Assembly: GCA_050872745.1 (NCBI GenBank) | Contig: JBNMHL010000001.1 | Location: 36,842 to 100,841, forward strand | Source of the DNA: Clostridiales bacterium | Lineage (GTDB): Bacteria > Bacillota > Clostridia > Christensenellales > UBA1242 | Length of the DNA stretch: 64,000 bases | Direction of reading: 5' to 3' | Part shown: in pieces, positions 3,001 to 41,010 of the stretch | Numbering within the stretch: the first letter of the stretch is position 1 | Layout of the letters: each line of letters opens with the position of its first letter | Program-made: the position numbers and the translations under genes | The notes under the pieces: model-generated | Database searches by the model: none | Told to the model about the DNA's origin: nothing | Seen by the model: the letters and a program-made list of their open reading frames with translations, nothing else

Positions 3001-6000
3001 CACAGCATATAAATCAACAATAAACAACTTAAATATGGGTGGTTTATCAGGTTTAGCTAACTTCTCTGATTCATTATTTGCAACAGCATTAAATGGAACA
3101 AATAGCGTGTCAATTGGTGGTGGCACTGAAGATAACAAAATCACTATTAAAGATTTATCGAACGTTGGTGCTTTATTTGGTAAACTTGAAGTTGCTAGTG
3201 AAAAAGAAATAGTGTTAGAAAATGAATTAGATAATATCAGCCTAGATACTACTATGAATCACATCTCTAAAACCTCAACAACTGATTACTTGAATATTGG
3301 TCAATTTGCAGGTTCAATCAGAGGTGGAGATAATAGCAAACTTAAATATGAATCAATTAATAGATCATTAATAATTGAAAATAGTTCAGGCAATATTTCA
3401 TTAGGTAAGTTTGCAGGAAACATAGAAAATATTAACTTAATTAAAACTGGATCAACTATTCCTACTATCCATTCAGTTGAAAACAACGATAAATCAGTTC
3501 TTGGTTTAATAGTTGGAAGAGCTAATAAAAGTAAAATTAGCGTTATGGCTTCTGAAGATGAATTGGTAAATTTAACTCTAGCAAATGATTTAAGCATCAA
3601 AGGTGGAAGTGTTGGTGTTATTGCTGGTTTAATTAAAGAATCAGAAATTAATTTGAAAGAACTTAGTTGTTCAAATTTAACAATCAATGGCGGAGTTTAC
3701 ACTGGTGCTGTTGTTGGAAAGAGCGAAAGTTCAAAAGTTAATTTATCAAAAATTTCAAATGCTAACTTATCTGGCACAAATGCTGGTGCGGTGGCAGGCG
3801 AATTTAAAAACTCAAATCTAAATTTAAAAGTAGAAGAAGTAGCTGGTGTTAAAAATTATTCAAACACAAAGCTTACTATAGATAATGTTTCAGTTCAAGC
3901 AAACGTGGCAGGTGCAGTGTTTGGAAAAATTAAAGTTGAGCTTTACACAAATATAGAAGAAACCTACATTTCAAATATCACAGTTTCAAATGTTTTCAAT
4001 ATCAAAGCAACTGATATTGGAACTAATAAAGGTAAGGCAGGTGGAATTGCGGGTGAAATTGATGGCACAAGCGTTGTTGCACGAATTGGTTCTCCAATCA
4101 GCCTTGGAATAACTGAAATTGATGGTTCAATTATTGGTGGAATAGCTGGTGAATTGAAAAATGGCTCTATCCAAAACCTAACCGAACATGATGACTTAGA
4201 TATTAAAGCTGAATCTAAACTAGTTAATGCTGAAATTGCTGGTGGAGTGGTAGGTTTAATTGGTGAGTCAGATAGTGAAAATGAAATTAAAATTGATGGT
4301 GTGATTAGCACATCAACTAGTATCACAGCAAGTTTAATTGCTGGTGGAATTATTGGCGAAATTAATAACGCTAAAGTTTCAATTGGAACTCAGAAACTTG
4401 TTCAAAATAAGGCAACCTTAGTTACTGCCGGAAGTGAAACAACGGAAGAAAACACATATGCTGGTGGAATCATTGGAAAAATTTTAAGTAATCTTGAAAC
4501 AAAGATTGAAAATGTTAATGGTTCAACTGGAATAAACGTAACCGCAATAGTTAAGTCTGATTTGGCAACATCGTATGCTGGCGGTGTGCTTGGTTATGGT
4601 GAAAATGTTGTGGGTGAATGGAATTTCATAGGTGTTGCAGAAGTAAAAAGTATTGAAGTCCAAAAATATGATGAAGATGGCAATCCGTTAAAGAACCCTG
4701 ATGATGGCACTAACATTAAAGAAAATAAAGATGTTGTGGTTTCATATAACCTAAACTTAGGAACAATAACTGCTAAAGTGGCTGGGGGAATTGCGGGTTA
4801 CCTAAAAGGAAAAAGCAATGCTGAAGCTGAAAGAGTTTCTATTAAAGGTAGCAGTGAAGAAAGGTCAAGTGACTTGTTGAATAATTTAACAATTGATAAT
4901 ATTTTCATGTCTTCAATTTATTATAGAACAACACTAACTGGAACAATCACAGGAACAAACGCTATAAGCTTAGGCTCAATTGTGGGTGAAGGTGAGAATA
5001 TTAACATTCAATATTTCCAAAACTCAGCAAAGATTGAAAAGGCAGAATCAGCAGGTGGTTTTGCTGGAATATTAACAAACGGAAAGATTGAAGAGTGCCA
5101 AAATGATTCAGATATATCTGCGAAAGAAAATGCGGGTGGATTTATCGGAAAGGCTCGCGAGAATATCACATTAATAAACACAACAAATAAAGCACCTGAA
5201 GAGGTTGATGATCCAGAAACAGGCGGAAAGAGAACTAAGTATGTTGATATAAAATCTGATAAATATGCAGGTGGAATAATCGGGGTTGGTGAAGAATTAA
5301 CTTTAGATAGTGAATTTGTTGGATTGAAAACTTCAACCCAATTTGCAGAAGCACTTAAGGGATGTGAAGATGATTTGGATACTGATCCAGATAATATAGG
5401 AACAATAATTGCAAAAGTCATATTATCTATTTGCTATCATTACGTTGCTCAATATAACAACACCATTATAATAGGAAATGTTCAAGGTGAAATTGCAGGT
5501 GGATTTGCCGGAAGCCTAAATGGAAACGAGTCGATTTGTTCAATTAAAGGTAAAGATATAAATATAAAACTAGTAGAAAGTATTGAGGGTAAGCTTGTTT
5601 ACACCGATACAATCATTCCAACAGTTAAACTTTCGGGAATAGTTAGAGCAAGCAAAACCGCGGGTGGTGTTATTGGTGAAGGTTCTAATATTTCAATTTC
5701 AAACATCAATTGTGCAGTTGGAATTTCAGGATTAACAGAAAGCACTCTTCTAGAAACTGCGGGTGGAATGGTAGGAAAAATCACGAACGGAGCAAACGTG
5801 ATTAAATCTGAAGAAGTTGATAGCGTTGATTTTGAAAAAATAACGGTTGGAAATGTTTCTGATATATCTGCAAGTGAAAATGCAGGAAATATAATTGGAT
5901 TGGTTGAAAGCGGTTCAGTTGATTTTGCGGGAAATATTCTTGGCGCTGGATTGGTAACTGCTGGAACAACAACCACAACATCAGACACATTTGCAGGTGG

Positions 6001-9000
6001 CTTAGTAGGTAAATCAAAAGGCTCAATTAGCCTATCAGATATCTCATCAATTAAATTAAATGGTTCAGTGCAAGCTTTGGGAACTTCAAACACATATGCT
6101 GGTGGTGTTTTAGGCTACTCTCAAGGTGCAACTGGCGAGTTTAAAATAAAAGGTGATTTTAATATAGGTAAAGTTGTTGGTAAAATTGCAGGTGGATTTG
6201 CTGGTCATTTGTCTGGAATGACTAATGAAAATAGAGTTTCGATTAAAGGCACTGAAAGTGTTGAAAGTCAAGTAAAAATTACGGGTTCTATCAAAGGTTC
6301 AGAAAACTCAACATTCAATAAAACTGCTGGTGGAATTATTGGTGAGGGAAGTTTTGTTAACATTGAAAACCTTAGCGTTGCAGTAAAAATAGATGGCACA
6401 AATAGATTATTTGCAGGTGGAATCGCAGGCTTTGTGTTTAACTGCAATATATCAAATTGCAAATCAAGTGCAGAAGATGATGAATCTGAAAAAACAATTT
6501 CAGCAAAAGCTGATATAACAGACCAAGCAATCAAAAACTTTAGTGGCGATTCTTTAACATTGGATTCATATACTAAAGATGAAAAAGTCTATTCAGGTTA
6601 TGCGGGTGGATTCGTTGGTTATGGAGTTGGTATTGAAATTTCATTACCATTGCAAGAAAAAACGAAAGTTAATGGAGTAATTGCAGGTGGAGTTGCAGGA
6701 TTCTTAAGTGGAAAAATCGCTAGAGAGAATAGAGAAAAATTATTTTTAGATGCTAATGGTGGAAGTATTAATGCAATAATCTCAGGCGGTGGAGCGGTTG
6801 GAATTAGTGCTGGTGTTAAAATAAATAATTTTGAGATTGAATTTAGCGAATTTAAGATAGTAAAAGAAATTGGGGCTTCAGTACCTGAAACTTATTTAGG
6901 TGGAGCTATCGGAAAATCGCAAGGTGGAAATGATAAAACTATTAATTGCACAACATCTTATAATGCAGGCAGTATTCAAAGAATAGAAGGTTCAAATTAT
7001 GCTGGTGGATTTGTAGGCTTCGCGAAAGCTGAAAGTTCGATTGAAATTTCTGGTTCAACTAATAACTTAGAAATTAAAGCGACTACTTGTGCTGGTGGTA
7101 TAATCGGAAAAGCAATTAGCGTTTCATTTACAAACACATCAAACGCTGGCAATGTTTCTGCTATCACAATCGTTGGTGGAATTGTTGGTGAAGCAGATAC
7201 TGCAATATTTAATAGTGGAATTAGTGTAACTCAGGGAACTTTCGAGGCTATCGACTATGCTGGAGCGGTTGCTGGAAAGGTAAATTATTCTGCAGAACTT
7301 ACTTCACCTCCTGAATTGGCAAATGCAATCCAAGTTTCTGCTTCAAACACTGAAGAAGATAAAGGTTACGCTGGTGGATATTTTGGTTATGTATCAGGTT
7401 TAACCGCAACGTTTGATATATCTGATTCAACTGAATTAAATATTGGAATGATTAAAGGAAATTACGCTGGTGGAATTGCTGGTTACGCTAGCGGAAAAGA
7501 AGATGACTTCTTAACGATTGTTGGTAACTTCACAACATATACTTCAATCAAAGGCACTATTTCATCATGCTCAGGCACTGCGAAATCGATCGGTGCTGTG
7601 GTTGGTGAAGGTGAATATCTAAACATTTCAAATATTCAAAACCAAATCACATTAAATAGTTCAGAAAAAGCGGGTGGTTTAGCTGGAAAATTAACCAACT
7701 CAAAAATCACACACTGCAGAGTTCTATATTCAGATATTACAGCAACTCATTATGCGGGTGGTTTAGTAGGTCAAGGTGAAAACCTTGAATTATCAGAAAT
7801 GTTTGAAATGAAAAACAATAGTGGAACAATTCAAACAACGGCAACTACCGAATCTTACGCTGGTGGATTATTTGGTTACTTAGAAGGTGTAATTGGAGAT
7901 AAGATTGATTGGTCGAGTTTCTACTATAGTGGAATCAATGTTGGAACAATTAAATCTAATTATTCTGCTGGTGGTTTCGCTGGTTTCTTGAGTGGAAGAG
8001 ATGCTGAAAATAAATATGTTTTAGGCGGGATAGATGGTAAGCCATTAAAAATGCAAGGCACGATCGCTAAGAATACCAAATCATATGCATATACATTAGG
8101 ATCAATAGTAGGAATTGGAAAGTGGTTGAAGTTAGAAAGCTGCGGAGAGTATGAAGTAATTAAAGAATCAGAAATTATTGGTGGAATCGCTGGAATACTC
8201 ACAGATTCAAATGTTTCTTATTGTGACTCTTCAAAAGACTTTTCAGTTGATTTCTCAAGTGGAGAATTAACAGATTCTAATAAAGGCATATGCGTTGGTG
8301 GAATAGTTGGATACGCAGACGGCGAAACGACAATTGAAAATTGTAGCTCATCAAGCAATATTTCTGCAAAGAAAACAACTGATTCTGATGGATACGCTAG
8401 TGTGGGTGGAATTGTTGGAAGAAGTGCAGGAAATATAACGATTAAAAACTGTGGTAGTCCCGCAAATATACGAACAATTACTGGAGAAAACATAGGAATA
8501 AATAGTAAATATGGTTATGCTGGTGGAGTGATTGGGCAGATACAAGGTGAAGGAACTATTACCGATTGTTATAATTACAGTAATGGGACCATTAAAGCAA
8601 CAAATTCAGCCGGAGGCATAGTAGGAGAAGCAGTTGAAATTATAATTAATACTGAAAATAAAGAATGCTCTAATGATGGTAATGTTGTAGCGAATAATGA
8701 CTACGGCTATGGTGCTGCTGGCGGAATTATTGGTAAAATATATGGCAGTGGAGCAATTATAGGAACTGAAACTTATAAAATTACAAATAATGGCAAAATA
8801 GGAAATGATTCAACATGGCAAGCAGGAGGAATAATTGGTAGGGCATCGGATAACGCTACTAATAGTGAAGAAATTGAGATTCAATATGTTGAAAACTATG
8901 GAACAATATTAGCAGAAGAAACTGCAGGTGGAATTATTGGAACTGGAGATGCATCTGAGATTAACATATCAAATGTAACAAATGAATTAATCGCGGTTAA

Positions 9001-11104
9001 CGAAAAAGATATAAGAGCTAAGTGTGTTGGAGGAATTATTGGGCATGTGAAGAGTGTAACATTTGGTGAGAATATCAAGTGCTTAGATGGAAATTTTGTG
9101 GGAGTTACATATGCTGGGGGAATAGCTGGCAAAATATCAACTTCTGCTAAAATAAACAACACTCCAACTATATCAAGCGAAATTAGAGTTTTAACTTCGG
9201 GAACAGGAGAAGACATTGGTTACACTGGTGGATATTTTGGCTATGTTGAGAAAGCAGAAGGAACTTTAGATTTCAGTTCATCACCTGAAATAAGTATCGG
9301 TGAAGTTTGCGGAAAATGTGCTGGTGGAATTGCCGGTTACATATCTGGAACTGCAGGAAATAACTTAAAGATTCAAGGACACTTAAGTAAAACAAGGTTA
9401 GTTAACTCTGCTGTTTCAGCTTTTCAAGGTTCACCAACGCCAGCCACGCAGTATATAGGCGGGCTTATAGGTAAAGGTGGATATTTGGTAATTTCAAATT
9501 TCATCATAATTAACTCAGTTGAGATAAATAGCAACAAACAATATAATGAAGCTATGGGTGGATTTATTGGTGTTGTTAGTGCTGAAACAACAATTTCTAA
9601 TTGCACAAATAATGCCGGTATGTTAATTATAGGAAACGATGTTGATGCAGGAGGTTTTGTTGGCCATTCTGGAGCTAAATTAACAATTTCTAATTCGATA
9701 AATAATGGCGAAATCGAAGCAAAAAGAGATACAACTGTTGGAGGACCAGCTAATCAATTTGTTAACGCAGGAGGTTTTGTTGGTGATTCTAAATCAGATC
9801 TTGAAATTACAGGCTCAATAAATAATGGTACGATAAAGTCAGATGATACTTTTGGAACTGCTGGAGGATTCGTTGCACTTTCATTTGGAATGATAACACT
9901 AACAAATTGCCATAATGGTTCAAGTGGCTCACAAGCTACAATTCAAGGAGAACATGCAGGAGGTTTAGTTGGTCATAATGATGAAAAATCAATACTAATA
10001 AGTGGTTGTGTAAATTATTTAAATATCACAGGCTTATATTGTGGAGGCTTTGTTGCTTACACTAAAGGTGAACTAAACGTTGAGAATAGTGAAAATAATG
10101 GTTCTGTTGATGCCACATGTGATGCTGGTGGAATAGTTGCGCATGCCATTGGAACAAAATTAAATCTTACAAACACTCATAATAAAAAAGGTATAAAATC
10201 TGGCTCACAAACATATACAGAGGGTACTACTACAACTACTACACTGGGATACAGTATTGGCGGGTTGGCTGGTTATGTTACGGGTGTATGTGATATTCAA
10301 AATTGTTCTAATTCGGGCTATATACATGGAGCGGTTCAGGCTGGCGGATTGGTTGGTCACGCTCGAAATGATATCACAATAACGGGCTCTAGGAATACTG
10401 GGGATGTTCGAGGAACAGCCACATTTACTAATTGTGGAAAAGGCGGATTGGGCGATTCAGCTGTTGGTGGCTTTATTGGTTATGTTGTTAATTCAAATGT
10501 AACAATTAATGGTACTGATGAACAAGAAAATAAATCTTTTATTTCTCACGGATTATATATGGGTGGTTTTGTAGGCTATATTAAAAATCAAAATGAAGGT
10601 GGGAATAATAAACAAGTAGAAATTCAAAATTGTATATCTACCTCGAACGGCATCGAAAATAGGTCAGATATTGGATGTTCTCAAGGCTTTGGACATCCTG
10701 GAGGGTTTATTGGAAGAACAGATATTGTAACATACATAGATAATTGCACAAATAGTGCGAAAATAGAGTCGTGTAATGTTAATAATAAAGCAACAGATGC
10801 TGGTATTGTATCAATAGCGAATGAAATTTATATAGGTACTAAAAAAAATACTGGAGCTGTAATAAATAATGGCTATGTTGGTTATGTTAAGGGCGCCACA
10901 ACAAGTGCACCTAAGAATGTGGCTGGATTAGTTGGTTTTATAAATAGTTACGGAAAATTTGATAATTATCAATCAAATGGTGGCTTAACTTGCAATAGTG
11001 GGGGACATACAGCTTTAGTCTGCTTCTACAAAACTGGTGCCACGATAGAAGGAGTTTCTGGGGATGCCAATATAAAGGAGTGGACTTGGAACTATCCAAT
11101 TTAA
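2..11104 (+). CDS. Giant repeat protein (>3,696 aa, 5' end outside window); GLUG-motif, probably beta-helical surface adhesin-like protein
   Basis: One frame is open from the first bases of the window to TAA at 11102-11104. It carries well over 100 degenerate units centred on G-G-[ILF]-[AVI]-G (YVGGLVG, AGGIAG, AGGFVG). The C-terminal ~900 aa (nt ~8300-11100) show the classical GLUG pattern I-x-N-C-x-N-x-G-x-[IV]...A-G-G-[IFL]-V-G. No start codon can be assigned inside the window. Confidence 0.85.
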   Translation, partial: RTKGLDSLSGSEMLGYYAGLFGCTDGAKIKNIVLEENCIITGTRYIGGLVGYAKDTSIENIISNVTINNTDLLQTEKEDGCTGGVVGLLEFTDYKVDLNPTGLIKESETPLTPNAFNIPLKNINTTANAKVQVAHSSVVGGIIGKILINSEIENLIVSFGSEIKNNASIYAPNSNNVAGVIAKVEVNECIIDKTQLVIEFTDLKTQIIENGGKVQGKNYVGGLFSSISNLNVKSTETINTADINHKLNTGSIMGENYVGGFAGYATHTKIEGSVKAYISGESKYALNYVWFENAGSIQASSYVGGLFGAIGGDYDSIVDKPNYREPIEEFTQEKVTSRLHLVKNSGSILSNKNTSDSYFGGIAGFANVLIEGAINSGEINCILNGADYNEHNTNLKYVGGIAGFETVGIFEAQNKAPVFGYESDGENYGIAGIVGTFLINDNIDDEYNKIINLENSAEIDNGNGSAIVGTILHNKNQLVNYKDYYAKTESKFKYSNIVSGGTSSNISNDLLALIQSKVLMGYDNNSNAMHYSDNTMIRVANENKNNQAFVESSSWKTNENSKKFELVQFALPKLEIEEVGEKYVYALSDASSYITAQKTHSRRYKLSPYQYDINPNIDIKVTSQINLSGIKDSIKETIDVLNESHNSINPLGSNEYMFIGEFNGDNKTIAYDSLYSLDNENYGLFGVVKETEISNVTINFKGENFNINGSKNASFAIAKLIGKSKVETLSVKQTENNINIQNQSTNFGFAIGSIDANGTSEENKSELKDIVVNGDIILNSDITNLGGLVGEITGEGFVDISQSETNENKSKIFINGNNKATAIAGVVGLINKSETKDLNVSISDLKLEKVELKNASDLASGSTIAGITTKLETGSKITGIEIGAINLQNANNIAGFVNNLSGGEIKSNSINSINLGADQNLNSLTIGGAVSTLSSGKLQMNSIAFGASNKIEINNNATIKTANIGGLVGVDNSSENEVYAIFNTNTNEWENQNTINNLKITAYKSTINNLNMGGLSGLANFSDSLFATALNGTNSVSIGGGTEDNKITIKDLSNVGALFGKLEVASEKEIVLENELDNISLDTTMNHISKTSTTDYLNIGQFAGSIRGGDNSKLKYESINRSLIIENSSGNISLGKFAGNIENINLIKTGSTIPTIHSVENNDKSVLGLIVGRANKSKISVMASEDELVNLTLANDLSIKGGSVGVIAGLIKESEINLKELSCSNLTINGGVYTGAVVGKSESSKVNLSKISNANLSGTNAGAVAGEFKNSNLNLKVEEVAGVKNYSNTKLTIDNVSVQANVAGAVFGKIKVELYTNIEETYISNITVSNVFNIKATDIGTNKGKAGGIAGEIDGTSVVARIGSPISLGITEIDGSIIGGIAGELKNGSIQNLTEHDDLDIKAESKLVNAEIAGGVVGLIGESDSENEIKIDGVISTSTSITASLIAGGIIGEINNAKVSIGTQKLVQNKATLVTAGSETTEENTYAGGIIGKILSNLETKIENVNGSTGINVTAIVKSDLATSYAGGVLGYGENVVGEWNFIGVAEVKSIEVQKYDEDGNPLKNPDDGTNIKENKDVVVSYNLNLGTITAKVAGGIAGYLKGKSNAEAERVSIKGSSEERSSDLLNNLTIDNIFMSSIYYRTTLTGTITGTNAISLGSIVGEGENINIQYFQNSAKIEKAESAGGFAGILTNGKIEECQNDSDISAKENAGGFIGKARENITLINTTNKAPEEVDDPETGGKRTKYVDIKSDKYAGGIIGVGEELTLDSEFVGLKTSTQFAEALKGCEDDLDTDPDNIGTIIAKVILSICYHYVAQYNNTIIIGNVQGEIAGGFAGSLNGNESICSIKGKDINIKLVESIEGKLVYTDTIIPTVKLSGIVRASKTAGGVIGEGSNISISNINCAVGISGLTESTLLETAGGMVGKITNGANVIKSEEVDSVDFEKITVGNVSDISASENAGNIIGLVESGSVDFAGNILGAGLVTAGTTTTTSDTFAGGLVGKSKGSISLSDISSIKLNGSVQALGTSNTYAGGVLGYSQGATGEFKIKGDFNIGKVVGKIAGGFAGHLSGMTNENRVSIKGTESVESQVKITGSIKGSENSTFNKTAGGIIGEGSFVNIENLSVAVKIDGTNRLFAGGIAGFVFNCNISNCKSSAEDDESEKTISAKADITDQAIKNFSGDSLTLDSYTKDEKVYSGYAGGFVGYGVGIEISLPLQEKTKVNGVIAGGVAGFLSGKIARENREKLFLDANGGSINAIISGGGAVGISAGVKINNFEIEFSEFKIVKEIGASVPETYLGGAIGKSQGGNDKTINCTTSYNAGSIQRIEGSNYAGGFVGFAKAESSIEISGSTNNLEIKATTCAGGIIGKAISVSFTNTSNAGNVSAITIVGGIVGEADTAIFNSGISVTQGTFEAIDYAGAVAGKVNYSAELTSPPELANAIQVSASNTEEDKGYAGGYFGYVSGLTATFDISDSTELNIGMIKGNYAGGIAGYASGKEDDFLTIVGNFTTYTSIKGTISSCSGTAKSIGAVVGEGEYLNISNIQNQITLNSSEKAGGLAGKLTNSKITHCRVLYSDITATHYAGGLVGQGENLELSEMFEMKNNSGTIQTTATTESYAGGLFGYLEGVIGDKIDWSSFYYSGINVGTIKSNYSAGGFAGFLSGRDAENKYVLGGIDGKPLKMQGTIAKNTKSYAYTLGSIVGIGKWLKLESCGEYEVIKESEIIGGIAGILTDSNVSYCDSSKDFSVDFSSGELTDSNKGICVGGIVGYADGETTIENCSSSSNISAKKTTDSDGYASVGGIVGRSAGNITIKNCGSPANIRTITGENIGINSKYGYAGGVIGQIQGEGTITDCYNYSNGTIKATNSAGGIVGEAVEIIINTENKECSNDGNVVANNDYGYGAAGGIIGKIYGSGAIIGTETYKITNNGKIGNDSTWQAGGIIGRASDNATNSEEIEIQYVENYGTILAEETAGGIIGTGDASEINISNVTNELIAVNEKDIRAKCVGGIIGHVKSVTFGENIKCLDGNFVGVTYAGGIAGKISTSAKINNTPTISSEIRVLTSGTGEDIGYTGGYFGYVEKAEGTLDFSSSPEISIGEVCGKCAGGIAGYISGTAGNNLKIQGHLSKTRLVNSAVSAFQGSPTPATQYIGGLIGKGGYLVISNFIIINSVEINSNKQYNEAMGGFIGVVSAETTISNCTNNAGMLIIGNDVDAGGFVGHSGAKLTISNSINNGEIEAKRDTTVGGPANQFVNAGGFVGDSKSDLEITGSINNGTIKSDDTFGTAGGFVALSFGMITLTNCHNGSSGSQATIQGEHAGGLVGHNDEKSILISGCVNYLNITGLYCGGFVAYTKGELNVENSENNGSVDATCDAGGIVAHAIGTKLNLTNTHNKKGIKSGSQTYTEGTTTTTTLGYSIGGLAGYVTGVCDIQNCSNSGYIHGAVQAGGLVGHARNDITITGSRNTGDVRGTATFTNCGKGGLGDSAVGGFIGYVVNSNVTINGTDEQENKSFISHGLYMGGFVGYIKNQNEGGNNKQVEIQNCISTSNGIENRSDIGCSQGFGHPGGFIGRTDIVTYIDNCTNSAKIESCNVNNKATDAGIVSIANEIYIGTKKNTGAVINNGYVGYVKGATTSAPKNVAGLVGFINSYGKFDNYQSNGGLTCNSGGHTALVCFYKTGATIEGVSGDANIKEWTWNYPI

Positions 11105-24784: not shown

Positions 24785-24800
24785 TTATTGAAAAAATTAG

Positions 24801-24970: not shown

Positions 24971-26380
24971 ATGGAAAATAGATTTATTAGAAATATTTCT
25001 CAAGATGCTCTAGTTTCTGAGAAAACCGATATTGTATTTAATTCGTTGTTAGGGGTTTACGATAATAATGGCAACTATTTTATTGCGCCAGAAATAGTTA
25101 ATGAATTAATAGGTTTTGAAAAAGCAAAAAAATATGCTTTTCAAGATTCAGTTTTTTGTGAAAGCAATATCCCCGGATTTGGTGAAATTATGTTTGAAAT
25201 AACATTTCATAAAAATCCTGAAAAAAATGAGTTTAGTGCAAAATTGTTTTTACTTGAAAATGTGTATAAAATTAATGGATATTTGCAAAATACAATTAAA
25301 ACTTTAATTTCAGAATTTAAATCTGATATGAAAGATTTTGTTGAAAAAGTATATAAAAACTATAATGTTGTTGTTGACTATGATGAAAACGGCAGAAAGA
25401 AAAAGGTGAGTGCTGAACACTTCTTAAAAACATTTTTAATGGCAAAAAAACAGTACTGTAATGCCCTTAAGAACGCAATTCAAACTGAATCTGAAAAACT
25501 ATACGGCGATTATTATAAAGCCAAAATAAAGGTTTTAAATAGGTCAAAAAACGCCTTTACCACAGATGTTTTAAGGCAATATGATAATGAATCTAAAAAG
25601 ATTGAAGGTGTTTTCTTAAAAGAAACGAAGAACAAAGATTTAAATGAATTGCTGGATAAATCAATTGAAGATATCACTCAAACAAAAGAACAAAATAAAG
25701 AGTTTGAAGAAAAATTTTTCAAAGAAATTTTGCCTGCGTTAAAAACTTTTTACTCATCAATGACTGAAACTATTGAAACTGCATCTAAAAAAGTTATGGA
25801 AAGTTTAGATAAATCTGATAGATTGAATATGAATGTTATTAAAGAAAAAGAAGATAACTTTGTTAGAACATCAAATAACGATTCAAGCCTTAGTGAATTA
25901 ATAGACTTGTTGAATCTTGAGCAACCAATATTAGATGAAAATGAGCTTGAAATGTATGAGGAAAGTCTAAAAGATTTAAGCATTGAAAACTCAGTTAATT
26001 TAGATAATGAAACCAACCAAACTACTATGCAAGATTTTGAAAATTCTGAATTGAAGCCAATCGATGCTGATTTATTAAATGAAGTTAATAAAAAACAAAA
26101 AGAGGGAAAACTAAAATTTGATAAAGTCATAAGTGGGAAAATCAAAAAATCTATATTAAATAATTCCAACTTTAAAACAATAGATAATACTATGCAAAAT
26201 CAAGAATCTGCAACTCAGGTTGATGTTCATAATGTTGTTGCAAAAGAAAAAGTTGAAGAAAAAATGCAAGAGGCGCAAGCACTTGATGGTAACACAGTTG
26301 CATCGAGCATAATCGAGAATTTAAAGGGTAAAAATAGTAATAATTCAACTCAAGATTTTGAAATTGATCGCAATATTTAA
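24971..26380 (+). CDS. Hypothetical protein (469 aa), K/E/N-rich, no recognisable domain
   Basis: Long ORF in the co-directional gene run. There is no obvious SD and no family I recognise. Confidence 0.7.
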   Translation: MENRFIRNISQDALVSEKTDIVFNSLLGVYDNNGNYFIAPEIVNELIGFEKAKKYAFQDSVFCESNIPGFGEIMFEITFHKNPEKNEFSAKLFLLENVYKINGYLQNTIKTLISEFKSDMKDFVEKVYKNYNVVVDYDENGRKKKVSAEHFLKTFLMAKKQYCNALKNAIQTESEKLYGDYYKAKIKVLNRSKNAFTTDVLRQYDNESKKIEGVFLKETKNKDLNELLDKSIEDITQTKEQNKEFEEKFFKEILPALKTFYSSMTETIETASKKVMESLDKSDRLNMNVIKEKEDNFVRTSNNDSSLSELIDLLNLEQPILDENELEMYEESLKDLSIENSVNLDNETNQTTMQDFENSELKPIDADLLNEVNKKQKEGKLKFDKVISGKIKKSILNNSNFKTIDNTMQNQESATQVDVHNVVAKEKVEEKMQEAQALDGNTVASSIIENLKGKNSNNSTQDFEIDRNI

Positions 26381-26403
26381 ACTGTGAAAATATAAGGAAA
26401 AGA

Positions 26404-26670
26404 ATGAATATGCAAAAGAAAACAAGGAATATTTTAATAGCATCAATAGTCTCAGCAATAATTGTTGTGGTGGCTTTGGTGTGTGTATTAATTTTTGCTA
26501 CTAAGCCAAAATCATTTAATTGCACAATAAATTACGCATATGGCTTAGTTCAAGAATCAACATTAAATCTTAAAAAGGGAACAAGCATTTCAGAAATAAT
26601 TCCAATAGAAATTGAAGGTTACACCTTTGATGGATATTATTTTGATCAAGAATTTAACGAAAAAGTTTAA
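26404..26670 (+). CDS. N-terminal fragment (signal-anchor plus first part of an InlB B-repeat / Flg_new domain) of an interrupted surface protein
   Basis: The TM segment is ILIASIVSAIIVVVALVCVLIFA. The fragment ends ...IEGYTFDGYYFDQEFNEKV-TAA. The next ORF is in the same frame and continues the same repeat unit. Confidence 0.8.
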   Translation: MNMQKKTRNILIASIVSAIIVVVALVCVLIFATKPKSFNCTINYAYGLVQESTLNLKKGTSISEIIPIEIEGYTFDGYYFDQEFNEKV

Positions 26671-26679
26671 GATAATTAT

Positions 26680-29550
26680 GTGATCAAAAGAAAGTTAAAT
26701 TTGTATGCAAAATACAATATTAATTATTACGCAATCACAATATCATCAAACAACACACAATATGGTTCTGTGAGTGAATCTAGCTTCGAAGCAGAATATA
26801 ATTCAATGATTACTATTGAAGGAAATAAAATTACAATTGGAAATAAGGAAATAATTGCAACACCAACGCCTAACACAATTCAAAATTCTTATGCTTTTGT
26901 TAATTGGTCAATTTCTCCAGTGTGCGAAAATGTTAAAGGAGATATAAGCATTGTGGCAAATTTTAAAGAGACCACAAACGCGTACGAGATCAAATTTTTA
27001 AACTATGATGGAACAGAACTTCAAAAGTCTAACCTAAGCTTTGGAGAAATGCCAACGTACGATGGTGCAACTCCAACAAAACCAGCAACAGCTGAATTTA
27101 CTTACACATTCTCAGGTTGGGATAAGGAAATTAGCAACGTTACAGGTGATACAACTTACACGGCTATCTTCACAAAAATTAAAAATAAGTATTTAATCAC
27201 ATTTAAAAATGAAGATGGAAGCATCATTGAAGCAAAAGAATTTGAGTATGGTACAATTCCAAATTGCTCTCAAACTCCAACAAAACCAGCAACAGCTGAA
27301 TTTACATACACATTCTCAGGATGGGATAAGGAAATTAGCAACGTTACAGGTGATGAAACTTACATAGCTATCTTTACAAAAATTAAAAATAAGTATTTAA
27401 TCACGTTTAAAAATGAAGATGGAAGTATTATTGAGACAAAAGAATTTGAGTATGGTACAATTCCAAGTTGTTCTCAAATTCCAACGAAAGAACCCACTAT
27501 TGAGTTAGCTTACACATTTAATGGTTGGTTACCGAAGGTGGTTAGCGTGACTGGTGAAGCAACATATAAAGCAACATTCAGAGAAGGAGCAAGGCAATAC
27601 ACCTACACATTCTATAACGAAGATGGTTCAAGTGTTGTTTCAACTGGTGCAGTTGATTATAATTCAATAATCCCTTTGCCACAAGATCCAATAAAAAAAG
27701 GCCATGAATTTGTTGGTTGGAGCTTAAATCCTGATGGAGAAGTTGCAGATTTGAGTAATTTTAGAGTTGTTGAAAATGTTGATATTTACGCACTTTTTAG
27801 TGTTTTAAAATATACAATAACATGTTTAAATTCTGAAAATGGAGTGCTATCATCAGAGAAATCAAAATGTGATTATGGAGATATTTCTAAATTAACTTTC
27901 ACACCAAACGAAGGCTTTATTCTTTCAGCATATTTTGTTAATGGTGAAAGAATGGAATTGCAGGCTGATGAGTTAGTTTTGGGAGTAAAAAATATATCTT
28001 TCATAATGCCGGATTCTAATGTTGAATTAACCCCAGAATTTTCAATTGCTATAAAAACAAAAGATGGTGAAACTATTAATTGGGCATACACAACAGAGAC
28101 TGAAAATGGTGAAGAATTTACATATATCAATCAAATCCCAAAGTGTGATGGGGTTAATTTTGAGATTGATATCCCGGCATTCCTTATAGATACCGATAAC
28201 GAAAACAAAGTTGTTGCAATAAATGGAGTTAGAGGTTTTAGATCTGGCCCAATTGCAAATGTGAAGGATTATAAAACAGTCAATCTTCCAACACAACCAA
28301 GTTTTAGCAGAATAGGGAAATATGCATTTAATTATTGTACTAAATTATTTAACATTAATATAACAAGCAATATATCATTTATTGGAGATGGAGCTTTTAA
28401 TAATATTGCAAAAACTGATTTTTATATTCCAAGTAGTGTTCAAGAAATAGGAGAAAATGTTTTTGGTCGAAATTCAATAACAAGTTTAATTATTTCTCCC
28501 GAAAACGATACATTCACGGATGGCGGAGTTAATGCCATAATTAATAAAAAAACAAAAACATTAGAATATGCAACAACATTAACAACATCAATTCCAGATT
28601 CTGTTTTAGTTATTGGTTCTGGGGCTTTTTCTAATTATTGTTTTTCAGGTGCTTTTGTTATTCCAAATTCAATTGTTGAAATAAAAGAATCAGCCTTCAG
28701 GTCTAGCAATTTTGAGTCAATAGTTATTCCCAGCAGTGTGGAAATTATAGGGAAAGAAGCATTTTTAATTTGCAGTAAGTTAAGTTCCATTATATTGAAT
28801 TGCAGAATAACTGAGTTAAGTTCAAGCATGTTTCGTGGGTGTGACTTACTTGAAGAAATAACCTTGCCTAGTTCTATAATCTCAGTTGGTGAAGCAGATC
28901 CTTTTGAAAGGTGTCCAAATTTAAAAAATATTAAAATTGATGGGGAAAATTCACTTTTGTCATTTGATAATAATTTATTAATTATTAATGATGGTGTTAG
29001 AAAAAAAATTATTCATCATATTACAAATTCAGAAGAAAACATTGCGATTGCTAACGATATAACTGAAATATGCGATGGAGCTTATTCATATGATGATACG
29101 ATAACAAGTGTTAATTTCCCAGGTAATGTGAAAATAGCTTCTAAAAGTGTTTTTTATCGTTGTAGCAATTTGACTTACTTAACTTTAAATGAAGGAATTG
29201 AAATAATTAAAGTGTTAGCGTTTGGTAGTAATAAAATTGAAAAACTAATAATTCCAAATTCTGTTTCCATCATTGAGGCTAGCACATTCTACACATATAG
29301 TTCATCTCTCACTACTATTATTATTGGAACGCCTGAAGGCTCAAACCTTAAGAAAATAGGAAAAACTGCTTTTGGTATGAAATCTCATACTTTTGATCTA
29401 ATAATTTACGCAAATATCCCGCCAGTATTCGATGAACCAGATTCATACATTGGAGGATTTTCTTCAATAAAGGTTCCTAGTGGCAGTGTTCAAAGTTATA
29501 AAGAAGCAGAAGGTTGGAGTAAATATGCCGATGTTATTACTGCGATTTAA
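26680..29550 (+). CDS. Main part of the interrupted surface protein: InlB-B/Flg_new-type repeats followed by BspA-type leucine-rich repeats
   Basis: The frame is open from 26671, directly after the TAA. It begins (DNY)VIKRKLNLYAKY, the canonical end of a Flg_new unit. The C-terminal half carries IP-x-SV-x-I-G-x-x-AF-x-x-C-x-x-L repeats (BspA/LRR_5 style). This part has no signal peptide of its own. Confidence 0.8.
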   Translation: MIKRKLNLYAKYNINYYAITISSNNTQYGSVSESSFEAEYNSMITIEGNKITIGNKEIIATPTPNTIQNSYAFVNWSISPVCENVKGDISIVANFKETTNAYEIKFLNYDGTELQKSNLSFGEMPTYDGATPTKPATAEFTYTFSGWDKEISNVTGDTTYTAIFTKIKNKYLITFKNEDGSIIEAKEFEYGTIPNCSQTPTKPATAEFTYTFSGWDKEISNVTGDETYIAIFTKIKNKYLITFKNEDGSIIETKEFEYGTIPSCSQIPTKEPTIELAYTFNGWLPKVVSVTGEATYKATFREGARQYTYTFYNEDGSSVVSTGAVDYNSIIPLPQDPIKKGHEFVGWSLNPDGEVADLSNFRVVENVDIYALFSVLKYTITCLNSENGVLSSEKSKCDYGDISKLTFTPNEGFILSAYFVNGERMELQADELVLGVKNISFIMPDSNVELTPEFSIAIKTKDGETINWAYTTETENGEEFTYINQIPKCDGVNFEIDIPAFLIDTDNENKVVAINGVRGFRSGPIANVKDYKTVNLPTQPSFSRIGKYAFNYCTKLFNINITSNISFIGDGAFNNIAKTDFYIPSSVQEIGENVFGRNSITSLIISPENDTFTDGGVNAIINKKTKTLEYATTLTTSIPDSVLVIGSGAFSNYCFSGAFVIPNSIVEIKESAFRSSNFESIVIPSSVEIIGKEAFLICSKLSSIILNCRITELSSSMFRGCDLLEEITLPSSIISVGEADPFERCPNLKNIKIDGENSLLSFDNNLLIINDGVRKKIIHHITNSEENIAIANDITEICDGAYSYDDTITSVNFPGNVKIASKSVFYRCSNLTYLTLNEGIEIIKVLAFGSNKIEKLIIPNSVSIIEASTFYTYSSSLTTIIIGTPEGSNLKKIGKTAFGMKSHTFDLIIYANIPPVFDEPDSYIGGFSSIKVPSGSVQSYKEAEGWSKYADVITAI
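26977..27600 (+). repeat. Intragenic tandem repeat, ~204-nt (68-aa) unit, about 3 copies
   Basis: CTCCAACAAAACCAGCAACAGCTGAATTTAC... at 27071 recurs at 27275. The protein units NKYLITFKNEDGSIIE[AT]KEFEYGTIP and TPTKPATAEFTYTFSGWDKEISNVTGD are near-identical. Confidence 0.85.
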
Positions 29551-29612
29551 TGAATTTATTTAAATCATAACTTAAAAAAACAAATAAAGTTGCAATAAAT
29601 AACATTTTATAC

Positions 29613-29642
29613 TTTACAATTTATTTGGTGTTGTGATATAAT
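29613..29642 (+). promoter_or_regulatory. Candidate extended -10 promoter
   Basis: TTTACA (29613-29618), 18-nt spacer, TGA-TATAAT (29634-29642). Confidence 0.45.
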
Positions 29643-29658
29643 TTAGTTAACAAAATAT

Positions 29659-29686
29659 AAAAAAAGAGTTTCGGCTCTTTTTTTTT
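29659..29686 (+). terminator. Weak terminator-like hairpin
   Basis: An A-run, then GAG / CTC with a TTTCGG loop, then a T9 run. The stem core has only 3 G-C pairs. Confidence 0.35.
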
Positions 29687-29696
29687 GAGTTTGTTA

Positions 29697-32419: not shown

Positions 32420-32613
32420 AAGATAATTAAATATTTCAATTTGCCATAGACAGCAAGTTTGCTAAATTAATAATTCAGAATTGTTTTAACTTAGCATTTA
32501 ATTCTAGAAATAGGGCTTGCCGAGGTGAGTGTTAATGAGTGAATTCTTTCTTCCTTAATGCTTTCATGGCATTAAGGAATTTTTTAATTAAATATTAAAG
32601 AAAAGGAGAGAAA
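32420..32613 (+). promoter_or_regulatory. rplJ (L10) leader with attenuator
   Basis: A ~190-nt leader lies between the promoter and rplJ. It has a long-range GCAAG/CTTGC helix and ends in a perfect terminator hairpin. The position and architecture match the Bacillota L10 leader. Confidence 0.6.
32551..32586 (+). terminator. Leader (attenuator) terminator upstream of rplJ
   Basis: TTCCTTAATGC (32551-32561) pairs with GCATTAAGGAA (32569-32579) around a 7-nt loop, followed by TTTTTT. It lies 28 nt before the rplJ ATG. Confidence 0.8.
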
Positions 32614-37731: not shown

Positions 37732-40700
37732 ATGAAAGTTAAGATTTTTGTAGGGAAAACAAATAGAGATAGCCTTAAGGCAGTTATTGAAAAATTAAAG
37801 CACAGAGATAAAACTCAAATGCATATTTTAATAACCCCAGATAGAAATGCATTAAATATTGAGAATTTTGTTTTAGAGAATTTGTGTGAGGATTGTGTTA
37901 CTGATATCACGATTTCAACTTTTTCAAGGTTCTCGAGCCAAATCATTCAAAGGTATAATTCTGATAACAAAAAGATGCTCTCGAAGTCGGCGAGTATAGC
38001 TATAATTAAAAACATACTAACAAATAATATGGATAAGTTGAGTTATTATAAAAAAGCAATTAACTACAATGGTTTTTGCTCTGAACTCTACGAAACTATA
38101 TGTATGTTTAAAAGTTGCGGGGTTAAGCCAACTGATATTGTTGAAACCAATAATAATTTTTTAAATCTAAAATTAAAAGATATAAAATTAACATATGAAA
38201 AGTTTGAAGAGTTTTTGAAAAACAGATATACAGATAGTTTCAATAAATTAATTTTATGTTCAAAATTAATTAATTCTGATTTAAAAAATACTAATTTTTA
38301 TTTCATTGATTTTAATGATTTAAACTTTCAAATGTATCAAATTATTCTTGCACTAATAAAGAATTCGAGCAGTGTTAATGTTGCAACGGTGGCAAATTGT
38401 TTTGATGAATTGAATAATAAAGAACTGTTTGTGAATGCTATTTATTACAATATTATTGATTTATGCAAACAGTTAGGTGTTTATTGTGATATTGAAAAAT
38501 GTTCACCGGTTGATTATGTTAAGGATGATTTATATGGATATTCTATAGTGAAAAATGTCAATTATGAAAGGGTTGCTGACTATAAACTGTGTGTTTGTGA
38601 CAATAATCGCCTTGAAATTGACAATTTAGTTTTAAAAATTAAAAAATTGTTTATTGATGGCAAAATAAAATCTTTCAATGATGTTGTTGTTTGTGTTTCC
38701 GATTTAAACCTTTACTATAGGGATTTGGAAAATGCGTTAATAGTATCGAATTTGCCTTACTATATAGATAAGTCGAGTTCAATTAAGGATAATGTTGTTG
38801 TTAGGGCTATTTTAAATATTCTTGAGTTGTTGTGCGGTAACTACGATAAACATAATATTTTATCTTTGCTCAATAATGTGTTGTTTAATTTTGATGATAG
38901 TGTTTATGAATATAATAATTTTATTAATAAATATGGTTTGCAATATGCCAGCTTAATAGATAAATCATTGCTGAATAAAAATATAATCGTTCCAGATAGT
39001 TTAAAAAATGTTTTTTTGTTTTTTGCAATTATATTGAAATATAAGAGTAAAATTGATAGCCTAGGTTCAGTTGAAAGTTTATTAAGTATTTTGCGTGAAT
39101 TATTTGATGAGATTAAGTTTGAGGATAGGGTATTAAATCTTTTTAATAAATTGAAGCAACAGGGTTTAATTATTGAATTTAGGAATTTAGATAAGGTGTG
39201 TGAAAAAATTAAGCAAGCATTTAATGAAATTTTGGAAGTTTTTAAAAATGAGCAATTGTCACTTGAAGGTCTTAAGGGGATTCTTGATTCCTATTTTGAA
39301 GATATTTCTGTGAGCCAACCACCTATAAGTATTGATTCGATTTTTGTTGGTGATGTAAATAATTCTTATTTCACTCCTTGTAAGTATTTGTTTGTTTTGG
39401 GGGCTAATGAAGGAAGCTTTCCAACTTACTCTCAAGACCTTGGTATTGTTAGTGATAAAGAAATCGGACACTTGGATGAAAAAAATAAAATTGCTCCAAC
39501 TATTGCGCTTATTAATAAGAGGCGGAAGTTTAAAGTTTATGAGTTGATGTTTATGGCTGATGTGTGTACATACATATCTTATTGTTCATCTGATGAAAAT
39601 GGAGTTGAGCAATATCAAAATTCTTTTATAACATCGTTGATGAAATTAGATGCTATAAGTGAAGTTGAATATGCTAAACAAACAAATCTATCAAAGTGTT
39701 TGGTTGGTTGTGATGATGATTATTTTATCAATAATCTGAATTATGATACTGCTAAAAATAACTTTGCGTTTGCAATTAAGAATTGGAATTCCTTCTCGAG
39801 TAACGTTGGCTTTAGAGCGTATGTTGATTATCTTGCAAGTGTTCTAAATAAAGAGTGTGATAAAATTTTGGAGTTGAATAAATTTAGGAAAACTTATTTT
39901 AATTTAAGAGCTGAAAACAACAGTTTACTTAGTAACAACTCAATCAGTATTAGTCAATTTGAAACATTTTTTAAGTGCCCATATATGCATTTGGTTAGGT
40001 ATGGTTTAAAACTTAAAGATGAGGAAAAGACAGAATTGCAGGCGAAAGAATTTGGTGATATAATTCACTCTTTCTTGGCTATTTCAGTTAAAGAGTTGTG
40101 CAATAAACCCAATTGTGATGATACTAGTATTAACGATATTGTCAAAAAGTCATTTGATGTAGTTAAAAATATGGAGAAATTTTCTTACATTTTCAGTAAT
40201 AAGTTAAATGCATTTTTTGTTAACTCTTTAGAAGATGAGTGTTTTAGAGTTTTAAAAGCTATTAATAATCAACAAAAATTATCTAATTTCAGGCCTATGA
40301 AAAATGGTTATGAAATACCATTTAGTAAATTTTCCAATTCAATTAAGTTTAATATTGGAGATAAAGAAATAGTTTTAAAAGGTATAATTGATAGAGTTGA
40401 TTTGTGTGGTGATTATTTTAGAGTTATTGATTATAAAACTGGTAGTAATAGTTTTACCGATTTCACTGATTTATACAATGGTAAAAAAATTCAGTTAATA
40501 GTTTATATGAAAGTATTTGGAGATTCTCATAAAAACCTTAAACCGGCAGGTGCTTTATATTTACCAATTAAAAACTCTTATTCAAGTGGCTTAGATATGA
40601 AATACCAGTTGTCAGGCGTTATTAGGAATGAAATTGAAAATATTTTGAATTTTGATGGTAACTTAAACAAGCCAAACTACCGCAGTCCCGTTGTTAATCT

Positions 40701-41010
40701 GGCTACTAAGTCTGATTGTTCTTTTGTTTCTAATTCAACTTCTAATAATTTGTTATTAACTGAAGAGCAAATGAATTATATTTGTGATTTTGCCTTTGAA
40801 TTGATGAGTAGGGCGGTTGAGAAAATGAATGATGGTGTTATTGACGCCGTTCCTCTTGAAGATGATAACTTTAAATGTTGTGCTTATTGCGATTACAAAG
40901 GATTATGTTATTTTGATGAGTCGTTTAATTGCAAAACAAAAAAAGTTGTGAAAGTGAAAAATATTAGTGAACTTAAAAATATAATTGAAAAGGAAAATGA
41001 AATTGATTAA
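37732..41010 (+). CDS. addB: Helicase-nuclease AddAB, subunit AddB (RexB)
   Basis: 1,092 aa. The C-terminal RecB-type nuclease has Fe-S cysteines: FFKCPYMHLVRYGL ... GIIDRVDLCGDYFRVIDYKTG ... CCAYCDYKGLC. The N-terminal Walker A is degenerate (FVGKTNRD). Confidence 0.9.
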   Translation: MKVKIFVGKTNRDSLKAVIEKLKHRDKTQMHILITPDRNALNIENFVLENLCEDCVTDITISTFSRFSSQIIQRYNSDNKKMLSKSASIAIIKNILTNNMDKLSYYKKAINYNGFCSELYETICMFKSCGVKPTDIVETNNNFLNLKLKDIKLTYEKFEEFLKNRYTDSFNKLILCSKLINSDLKNTNFYFIDFNDLNFQMYQIILALIKNSSSVNVATVANCFDELNNKELFVNAIYYNIIDLCKQLGVYCDIEKCSPVDYVKDDLYGYSIVKNVNYERVADYKLCVCDNNRLEIDNLVLKIKKLFIDGKIKSFNDVVVCVSDLNLYYRDLENALIVSNLPYYIDKSSSIKDNVVVRAILNILELLCGNYDKHNILSLLNNVLFNFDDSVYEYNNFINKYGLQYASLIDKSLLNKNIIVPDSLKNVFLFFAIILKYKSKIDSLGSVESLLSILRELFDEIKFEDRVLNLFNKLKQQGLIIEFRNLDKVCEKIKQAFNEILEVFKNEQLSLEGLKGILDSYFEDISVSQPPISIDSIFVGDVNNSYFTPCKYLFVLGANEGSFPTYSQDLGIVSDKEIGHLDEKNKIAPTIALINKRRKFKVYELMFMADVCTYISYCSSDENGVEQYQNSFITSLMKLDAISEVEYAKQTNLSKCLVGCDDDYFINNLNYDTAKNNFAFAIKNWNSFSSNVGFRAYVDYLASVLNKECDKILELNKFRKTYFNLRAENNSLLSNNSISISQFETFFKCPYMHLVRYGLKLKDEEKTELQAKEFGDIIHSFLAISVKELCNKPNCDDTSINDIVKKSFDVVKNMEKFSYIFSNKLNAFFVNSLEDECFRVLKAINNQQKLSNFRPMKNGYEIPFSKFSNSIKFNIGDKEIVLKGIIDRVDLCGDYFRVIDYKTGSNSFTDFTDLYNGKKIQLIVYMKVFGDSHKNLKPAGALYLPIKNSYSSGLDMKYQLSGVIRNEIENILNFDGNLNKPNYRSPVVNLATKSDCSFVSNSTSNNLLLTEEQMNYICDFAFELMSRAVEKMNDGVIDAVPLEDDNFKCCAYCDYKGLCYFDESFNCKTKKVVKVKNISELKNIIEKENEID

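What the first reader, a model, noticed from the sequence alone, without database searches (positions are those of the whole stretch)
26404..29550. In-frame TAA splits a surface protein in the middle of a single repeat domain
Seen in sequence:
- ORFs 26404-26670 and 26680-29550 are in the same frame.
- They are separated only by TAA (26668-26670) and three sense codons.
- The junction reads ...IEGYTFDGYYFDQEFNEKV-stop-DNYVIKRKLNLYAKYN. This is one continuous InlB-B/Flg_new unit of the form G-Y-T-F-x-G-W/Y-Y...L-Y-A-K-W/Y.
- The only signal or anchor sequence is in the 88-aa upstream piece.
- The 956-aa downstream piece has no export signal of its own, and no SD precedes GTG 26680.

Inference: this is a recent nonsense mutation (pseudogene), a base-call error, or stop-codon read-through. 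If the stop is real, the large LRR part cannot be exported.
Basis: partly seen in the sequence, partly recalled or inferred. Interest (0 to 1): 0.55.

Follow-up and report, generated by a model that had tools for sequence, protein, structure and literature searches.

The report
Nonsense-mutated accessory surface protein gene
A gene for a large putative cell-surface adhesin in an uncultured gut Clostridia bacterium carries a real premature TAA stop that cuts it off from its only export signal; related strains have lost or wrecked the same gene, so this is an ordinary pseudogene in the making.

Summary
ORFs 26404-26670 and 26680-29550 share a frame. TAA 26668-26670 lies inside one InlB-B/Flg_new repeat, which passes Pfam's threshold only when the two pieces are joined. 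The only hydrophobic anchor is in the 88-aa piece, and no Shine-Dalgarno precedes GTG 26680.

The stop is real. Two independent Logan assemblies (SRR30769984, SRR30769985; about 99.9% identical to the window) carry the same TAA. The same runs correct two other lesions that only the window has: a TGA in an SPFH gene and a homopolymer frameshift in map.

TAA is the genome's normal stop (34 of 47 ORF ends), so the codon is not reassigned.

The gene is dispensable. Of 11 related contigs covering the tuf-rpmG interval, nine lack window 26188-29572 entirely. A tenth, more divergent one lacks the gene apart from possible vestiges of its ends. The eleventh keeps a wreck with lost start codons, a 1.9-kb deletion and frameshifts. 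No intact allele was found.

Best explanation: a fairly recent nonsense mutation in an accessory adhesin-like gene that is being lost in this lineage. This resembles the premature stop codons of Listeria inlA. Read-through or reinitiation is not excluded but has no support. Interest is low.

The parts
26394..26398 (+). Shine-Dalgarno-like AAGGA, 5 nt upstream of ATG 26404
   Evidence: Sequence read. Anti-SD duplex energy is -5.1 kcal/mol.
26404..26667 (+). 5' fragment of the gene (88 codons): N-terminal basic region, a hydrophobic signal or anchor (residues about 6-38, nt about 26419-26517), and the first two-thirds of the first Flg_new repeat
   Evidence: The identical product is called in Logan contigs L001 and L002.
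26566..26712 (+). The single InlB-B/Flg_new repeat unit that the stop interrupts (joined residues 55-103)
   Evidence: Pfam gives 28.7 bits over profile positions 15-65 only when the pieces are joined. Homologues align across it without gaps.
26668..26670 (+). Premature in-frame TAA stop codon, followed by G
   Evidence: Present unchanged in L001 (SRR30769985) and L002 (SRR30769984).
26671..29550 (+). 3' part of the gene, still one open frame of 959 codons: Flg_new and Flg_new_2 repeats followed by BspA-type LRR_5 repeats. It has no signal, no SD and no C-terminal anchor motif.
   Evidence: The 3' part is also open in Logan contigs L015 and L016.
27069..27489 (+). In-frame 204-bp tandem repeat (2.1 copies, 92% matches), duplicating a 68-aa repeat unit
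28582..28926 (+). Best-scoring BspA-type LRR_5 stretch (residues 635-749 of the 956-aa ORF). This is the likely ligand-binding head.
   Evidence: PF13306, 159 bits, 3 stretches.
26188..29572 (+). Segment that varies between related strains. Nine contigs have no alignable counterpart to it, one more divergent contig (L010) aligns only at its two edges, and L007 keeps a deleted, frameshifted remnant of it.

Best explanation
This is one gene, not two. It encodes a putative adhesin of about 1,048 aa: an N-terminal Sec signal or membrane anchor, a stalk of InlB-B/Flg_new repeats, and a BspA-type leucine-rich-repeat head. A single base substitution turned codon 89 into TAA. Ribosomes starting at ATG 26404 therefore release an 88-aa membrane-anchored stub. 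The remaining 959 codons have no ribosome-binding site and no export signal, so they are either not translated or give a cytoplasmic product that cannot reach the surface. The allele is therefore a loss-of-function allele (inferred). The lesion is fairly recent in this lineage, because it is the only one and the downstream frame is still intact. It falls in a gene that is dispensable for this organism and is being lost from the population.
For: Shown directly:
- Same frame, and a domain that spans the stop. Homologues are continuous across the site, and in P0046 and P0107 the equivalent unit is the first one after an N-terminal anchor.
- The stop is in the DNA. L001 and L002, from two separate sequencing runs, have no difference from the window between 26025 and 26920 and call the same truncated product.
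- Control for that comparison. Contigs from the same project (99.8-99.96% identical) show AGA where the window has TGA at 48480, and A5 where the window has A4 in map. They would therefore have exposed an artefact at 26668.
- TAA is the standard stop: 34 of 47 ORF ends.
- No anchor and no SD downstream of the stop.
- Dispensability. L003-L006, L008, L009 and L011-L013 are 95-99% identical in the flanks and lack window 26188-29572. L010, which is more divergent, lacks it too.
- Independent decay. In L007 both ATGs are ATA, window 26653-28552 is deleted, and the last kilobase carries six 1-nt indels plus stops. The remnant is 90% identical to the window, against 95-99% for neighbouring genes.

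Inferred:
- Recency. The window and L007 copies differ by about 9.5%, yet the window copy has no second lesion. dN/dS between the two copies is 0.45-0.55, between constrained genes (0 to 0.26) and neutrality.
Against: - No intact allele of this gene was found in any collection, so the ancestral sense codon is not observed.
- The strains that carry the stop are nearly identical and probably come from one project, so the allele may be confined to one population.
- Expression was not measured. A low level of read-through, or reinitiation at GTG 26680 only 9 nt after the stop, cannot be excluded from sequence alone.
- The two protein searches aimed at junction-spanning alleles did not even recover the known positives, so their silence says nothing.
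Confidence: 0.85

Rival explanations
1. The TAA is a sequencing or assembly error in the window, and the organism really has an intact gene.
For: The window does contain two lesions that near-identical assemblies lack. One is TGA 48480-48482, where L025 has AGA. The other is a 1-nt homopolymer deletion in map, where L032, L033 and eight related contigs have A5. The record is therefore not error-free, or the strain carries private mutations.
Against: L001 (SRR30769985) and L002 (SRR30769984) were assembled separately from raw reads, differ from the window by SNPs elsewhere, and both carry the TAA and the same 86-aa call.
Confidence: 0.03
2. The stop is bypassed: site-specific read-through of UAA gives some full-length exported protein, so the gene stays functional at a reduced or variable level.
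For: The 959 downstream codons are still open in a 31% G+C genome, and the frame is preserved. The 3' part is also open in L015 and L016.
Against: - TAA is the genome's main true stop.
- No tRNA gene is in the window.
- No Rfam element lies near the site.
- From general knowledge, UAA is the least leaky bacterial stop.
- The open frame is explained just as well by a recent mutation.
- Related strains discard the gene altogether, which argues against selection to keep it.
Confidence: 0.03
3. The split is functional as two products: the 88-aa membrane stub, plus a 956-aa protein made by termination-reinitiation at GTG 26680 that acts inside the cell or is exported another way.
For: GTG 26680 lies only 9 nt after the stop, a distance at which bacterial ribosomes can reinitiate (general knowledge). 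Gene callers annotate both ORFs.
Against: - There is no SD (-1.8 kcal/mol).
- The cut falls inside a folded repeat, so both products carry a broken domain.
- The downstream product has no hydrophobic segment.
- None of the homologues examined shows a two-gene arrangement; their repeat units are continuous across the site.
- The family's repeats (Flg_new, LRR_5) are those of extracellular proteins (general knowledge).
Confidence: 0.06

Closest known systems
Premature stop codons (PMSC) in Listeria monocytogenes inlA
   Same: A natural nonsense mutation in a gene for a Gram-positive LRR surface protein with an internalin-type repeat architecture. It segregates among strains and abolishes the surface function. 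This case is well documented (e.g. PMC12427964, PMC10299213, found).
   Different: The inlA stops described in those papers leave a truncated protein that is still made (abstracts); from general knowledge it is secreted because the C-terminal LPXTG anchor is lost. Here the stop is at codon 89, so the LRR head is cut off from its N-terminal signal and should not be made or exported at all. The protein is not an internalin orthologue: its LRRs are BspA-type LRR_5, its anchor is N-terminal, and it has no LPXTG. No phenotype is known.
BspA-like / InlB B-repeat ('Listeria-Bacteroides repeat', TIGR02543) surface proteins of gut Firmicutes and Bacteroidota
   Same: The domain make-up is Flg_new, Flg_new_2 and LRR_5. 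There are more than 1,800 homologues at E <= 1e-10, and the few that carry source names are called InlB B-repeat-containing or leucine-rich-repeat proteins.
   Different: The best non-self hits are only 30-57% identical over 24-64% of the query, so no orthologue is known. This copy is interrupted.
Strain-variable accessory genes lost by deletion (presence/absence polymorphism with pseudogene intermediates)
   Same: One chromosomal slot, between the 469-aa gene and the rpmG promoter, shows four states in related strains: full length with a nonsense codon, an internally deleted and frameshifted remnant, absent, and absent with possible vestiges of the gene ends.
   Different: Nothing unusual. 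No mobile-element genes or clear flanking repeats were seen.

Membership tests
Pseudogene by nonsense mutation | An in-frame premature stop that is truly present in the DNA | tested here: met
   TAA 26668-26670 is in the window and in two separately assembled runs. A control shows that these runs expose lesions found only in the window.
Pseudogene by nonsense mutation | The stop interrupts a unit that is continuous in functional relatives | tested here: met
   Flg_new passes Pfam's cutoff only when the pieces are joined. Homologues align across the stop without gaps.
Pseudogene by nonsense mutation | The stop codon has its standard meaning in this genome | tested here: met
   TAA ends 34 of 47 ORFs, including rpsL, rpsG, fusA, tuf and ribosomal-protein genes.
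Pseudogene by nonsense mutation | An intact orthologous allele exists that shows the ancestral sense codon | tested here: not met
   None was found. P0001 is alone in its cluster. Metagenome scans were empty. Related contigs lack the gene, or in L007 have the site deleted. Searches were uninformative because they missed the known positives.
Pseudogene by nonsense mutation | The downstream part is not expressed or not functional | not testable with these tools
   Only indirect evidence: no SD and no signal. Needs proteomics or ribosome profiling.
InlB B-repeat / Flg_new repeat proteins (PF09479, PF18998) | Repeat units scoring above Pfam's gathering threshold | tested here: met
   PF09479 scores 55.6 bits (cutoff 27) with 3 stretches. 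PF18998 scores 51.9 bits (cutoff 23.6).
BspA-type LRR proteins (PF13306 LRR_5) | LRR_5 repeats above the gathering threshold | tested here: met
   159.4 bits (cutoff 27.7), 3 stretches.
Listeria internalins (InlA/InlB) | Internalin-type N-terminal cap and LRR, inter-repeat region, and an LPXTG or GW anchor | tested here: not met
   No internalin-specific Pfam families were hit. The LRRs are LRR_5 type. The C-terminus ...SKYADVITAI has no LPXTG. The two share only the B-repeat.
Programmed stop-codon read-through / recoding | The stop is conserved at the same position in diverged orthologues | tested here: inconclusive
   The only carriers are about 99.9% identical to the window. In the one diverged copy (L007) the site is deleted.
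Programmed stop-codon read-through / recoding | A recoding signal or a suppressor tRNA | tested here: not met
   The window has no tRNA gene. The only Rfam hit is the L10 leader at 32426-32594. The rest of the genome was not available.

The most novel reading that the evidence does not exclude
The TAA is not simply a dead end. Low-level read-through or reinitiation may still yield some protein. Alternatively, the repeated independent inactivation of this one locus (nonsense here, start loss plus deletion in L007, clean deletion elsewhere) may reflect positive selection to switch off an exposed adhesin under phage or host immune pressure, with the nonsense allele as a potentially revertible off state.
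Probability: 0.05. Interest if true: 0.4.

Novelty: new member of a known kind. Interest (0 to 1): 0.12.

Why it matters
It matters little beyond annotation. The two ORFs should be annotated as one disrupted gene (pseudogene), not as two proteins, and the 956-aa entry in protein databases is a fragment. The locus is a tidy small example of how a gut commensal sheds a large surface-protein gene: nonsense, then decay, then deletion. The work also flags that this assembly carries at least two lesions of its own, in map and in an SPFH gene, that should not be read as biology without checking the reads.

Tried and rejected
- Exact look-ups of the 956-aa, 88-aa and 469-aa window products in the contig index found nothing. 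The window's own record is not indexed there.
- The cluster look-up gave the way in, through P0122.
- The search for homologous proteins with the joined N-terminal 198 aa (X at the stop) and 221 aa (K at the stop) returned no hits at all, not even P0001 or P0122. I treat these as failed searches, not as evidence of absence.
- A DNA pattern around the stop with NNN, and then P0001 itself, against JGI metagenome contigs found nothing.
- Genome-wide TAA reassignment: rejected from stop-codon usage.
- A paralogue in the window as the donor of the gene: none. BLASTP against the 3,696-aa ORF 14..11104 and the 740-aa ORF gave no hit.
- ORFs 37732..41010 and 40985..44470, suspected of being another split surface gene, are addB and addA.
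- Whether the gene was gained in the window/L007 lineage or lost elsewhere stays open. L010 seems to keep vestiges of both gene ends, which favours ancestral presence, but the similarity is short, A+T-rich and not significant by blastn-short.
Full report
**1. Observation**

The window holds ORF 26404..26670 (88 aa, ATG) and ORF 26680..29550 (956 aa, GTG) in the same frame. TAA 26668-26670 and the codons GAT AAT TAT lie between them.

Pfam's Flg_new model (PF09479, the Listeria-Bacteroides or InlB B repeat) matches the 88-aa piece alone only weakly: 15.2 bits, profile positions 14-48 of 65, cutoff 27. On the joined sequence with X at the stop it scores 28.7 bits over residues 55-103, profile positions 15-65. 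One repeat unit is therefore cut by the stop.

A local BLASTP of the joined N-terminus against 119 homologues gives gapless alignments across the stop position. P0058, P0010 and P0064 all show GYTF.G.Y.D.EF...LYAK..IN.Y. In P0046 and P0107 the matching unit is the first one after an N-terminal hydrophobic anchor, the same layout as here.

The only strongly hydrophobic segment of the joined protein is at residues about 6-38. The C-terminus has no LPXTG motif. GTG 26680 and the first in-frame ATG (26806) have essentially no Shine-Dalgarno pairing (-1.8 and -2.7 kcal/mol). Most genes in the window have -7 to -12, and the upstream ATG has AAGGA at -5.1.

A scan of all six frames finds only nine stops flanked by at least 70 stop-free codons on each side. 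Three of the other four on the + strand are ordinary boundaries between adjacent genes. The fourth is the window-only TGA in the SPFH gene described in section 2.

**2. Is the stop real?**

The 956-aa product (P0001) is alone in its cluster and comes from one NCBI contig of 121,608 bp. The 88-aa product has a cluster mate, P0122. P0122 is the same sequence starting at the second ATG, and it comes from two Logan assemblies of separate runs, SRR30769985 (L001) and SRR30769984 (L002).

L001 covers window 24745-26981 and L002 covers 24892-27101. Both differ from the window by four SNPs in the upstream gene, and L002 has 15 further differences at 26921-27071. Neither differs anywhere between 26025 and 26920, so both carry the TAA. 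Other contigs of the same project (L014-L016) carry the 3' part of the gene as an open frame at 99.9% identity.

A control arose by accident. The window has two further lesions:
- A TGA at 48480-48482 splits an SPFH/Band_7_1 gene. Pfam profile positions 1-119 match the upstream piece alone, and 1-194 match when the pieces are joined.
- An A4 run at 61768-61771 frameshifts map, the methionine aminopeptidase gene.

Contigs of the same Logan project (99.8-99.96% identical to the window) show AGA with an intact 294-aa SPFH gene, and A5 with an intact 248-aa map. Eight related contigs from other samples also have A5. These assemblies therefore do reveal lesions private to the window, and they do not remove the TAA. 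The stop is in the organism's DNA.

**3. Is TAA a stop here?**

Of 47 ORF ends in the window, 34 are TAA, 11 are TAG and 2 are TGA. The TAA ends include rpsL, rpsG, fusA, tuf and many ribosomal-protein genes. No tRNA gene lies in the window. The only Rfam match is the L10 leader at 32426-32594. Reassignment of TAA is excluded, and nothing suggests a local recoding signal.

**4. Context and population**

The window is a bacterial chromosome of about 31% G+C. The gene order is rpoB-rpoC, rpsL-rpsG-fusA-tuf, a 469-aa gene of unknown function, the split gene, then rpmG-secE-nusG-rplKAJL.

The 469-aa protein finds one locus among GTDB species representatives. This is L003, on contig CAKVOF010000023.1, an uncultured Clostridia MAG from a Hadza gut sample, 87% identical in protein. 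L003 is about 97% identical in DNA on both sides but has nothing corresponding to window 26188-29572. There the 470-aa gene is followed directly by the rpmG promoter region.

An exact look-up of the rpmG product returned ten more contigs from several projects:
- Eight (L004-L006, L008, L009, L011-L013) are 95-99% identical to the window in the flanks and lack window 26188-29572, like L003.
- L010 is more divergent (82-93% identity). It lacks the gene but may keep short vestiges of its two ends. This evidence is weak.
- L007 keeps a wreck of the gene. Both start codons read ATA, window 26653-28552 is deleted, and the remaining 3' kilobase has six 1-nt indels and stops.

The L007 remnant is 90.3-90.6% identical to the window copy. 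For comparison, the 469-aa gene is 95.4% identical, rpmG-secE-nusG 98.2% and tuf 98.8%. dN/dS between the two copies is 0.45-0.55, against 0.26 for the 469-aa gene and 0 for tuf.

The right-hand boundary is position 29573 in every contig. No integrase, transposase or clear flanking repeat is present.

No intact allele was found anywhere. P0001 has no close relative and the JGI metagenome scans were empty. Two further protein searches failed technically.

**5. Explanation**

The gene encodes a putative adhesin. It has an N-terminal Sec signal or anchor, a stalk of Flg_new and Flg_new_2 repeats that includes a recent in-frame 204-bp tandem duplication at 27069-27489, and a head of BspA-type LRR_5 repeats.

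A substitution created TAA at codon 89. Translation from ATG 26404 therefore ends after 88 residues. The rest has no ribosome-binding site and no export signal, so the surface function is lost (inferred from sequence, not measured).

The downstream 959 codons carry no second lesion, although the window and L007 copies have diverged by about 9.5%. This means the window copy was under constraint until fairly recently, and that the L007 copy was inactivated independently (inference). Related strains lack the gene altogether, so it is dispensable. The locus shows the ordinary path of gene loss: nonsense, then decay, then deletion.

Whether the repeated loss is neutral or selected (for example by phage or antibody pressure on an exposed protein) cannot be told from these data.

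**6. Rivals**

- Assembly error: essentially refuted (section 2).
- Programmed read-through: there is no positive evidence. TAA is the main genuine stop, and from general knowledge it is the least leaky one. The open downstream frame is explained by recency.
- A functional two-gene split with reinitiation at GTG 26680: possible in mechanism, since the GTG lies 9 nt after the stop. However, both products would carry a broken domain, the large one would be cytoplasmic, and none of the homologues examined has such an arrangement.

**7. Comparison with what is known**

The closest documented parallel is the premature stop codons of Listeria monocytogenes inlA (PMC12427964, PMC10299213). From general knowledge, those stops remove the C-terminal anchor and leave a secreted LRR fragment. 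Here the stop separates the signal from everything else.

The protein belongs to the large family of InlB-B-repeat and BspA-LRR proteins of gut bacteria (more than 1,800 hits at E <= 1e-10). It is not an internalin orthologue.

**8. Verdict**

The feature is real but ordinary, and interest is low. The useful by-products are an annotation correction and a warning about two other probable errors, or private mutations, in this assembly.

Noticed in passing
window 61426..62171 (lesion at 61768-61771): The map (methionine aminopeptidase) gene is frameshifted in the window: GGAAAATAG has A4. Eight related contigs and two near-identical Logan contigs (L032, L033) have A5 and an intact 248-aa gene. 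This is probably a homopolymer error in the window's assembly.
   Followed up: yes
window 48027..48971 (TGA at 48480-48482): A second in-frame stop splits an SPFH/Band_7_1 plus zinc-ribbon gene into ORFs of 151 and 154 aa. The 99.96%-identical Logan contig L025 has AGA (Arg) and one 294-aa gene. The lesion is therefore private to the window: either a base error or a strain mutation.
   Followed up: yes
window 26188..29572; loci L003-L013: The slot between the 469-aa gene and the rpmG promoter varies among related strains. The gene is absent in nine contigs. In L007 it is a deleted and frameshifted remnant. In L010 it is replaced by about 180 bp that may hold vestiges of the gene ends. The last about 190 nt of the 469-aa gene also diverge sharply between the gene-carrying and gene-less types.
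   Followed up: partly
window 27069..27489: An in-frame 204-bp tandem duplication (2.1 copies, 92% matches) inside the gene, equal to one 68-aa repeat unit. The Logan contig L002 ends near its start, after a cluster of 15 differences (6 nonsynonymous and 3 synonymous codons) at 26921-27071.
   Followed up: partly
window 14..11104: A very long ORF (at least 3,696 aa) runs off the left end of the window. Its first 1,000 residues have no Pfam match, and it shows no similarity to the split gene.
   Followed up: partly
window 24971..26380: A 469-aa protein with no Pfam domain lies between tuf and the split gene. It is conserved among related strains at 466-474 aa with a variable C-terminus. Only 23 nt separate it from the split gene and no promoter-like site lies between them, so the two are probably co-transcribed.
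   Followed up: partly
window 32426..32594: Ribosomal protein L10 leader (RF00557, 45.8 bits) upstream of rplJ. It is the only Rfam match in the window.
   Followed up: no
window 29613..29642 and about 29655-29690: A near-consensus promoter-like site (TTTACA, 18-nt spacer, TGnTATAAT) lies upstream of rpmG, followed by an A-tract/stem/T-tract hairpin (AAAAAAAGAGTTTCGGCTCTTTTTTTTT). The surrounding segment, from 29573 to rpmG, is about 97-99.5% identical in the related contigs aligned over it.
   Followed up: no
tool behaviour: the search for homologous proteins returned no hit for 198-aa and 221-aa queries, although 105 to 130 of their residues are identical to P0001 and 86 to P0122, both in its database. 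Null results from that tool for short, low-complexity, A+T-rich-encoded queries should not be trusted.
   Followed up: partly
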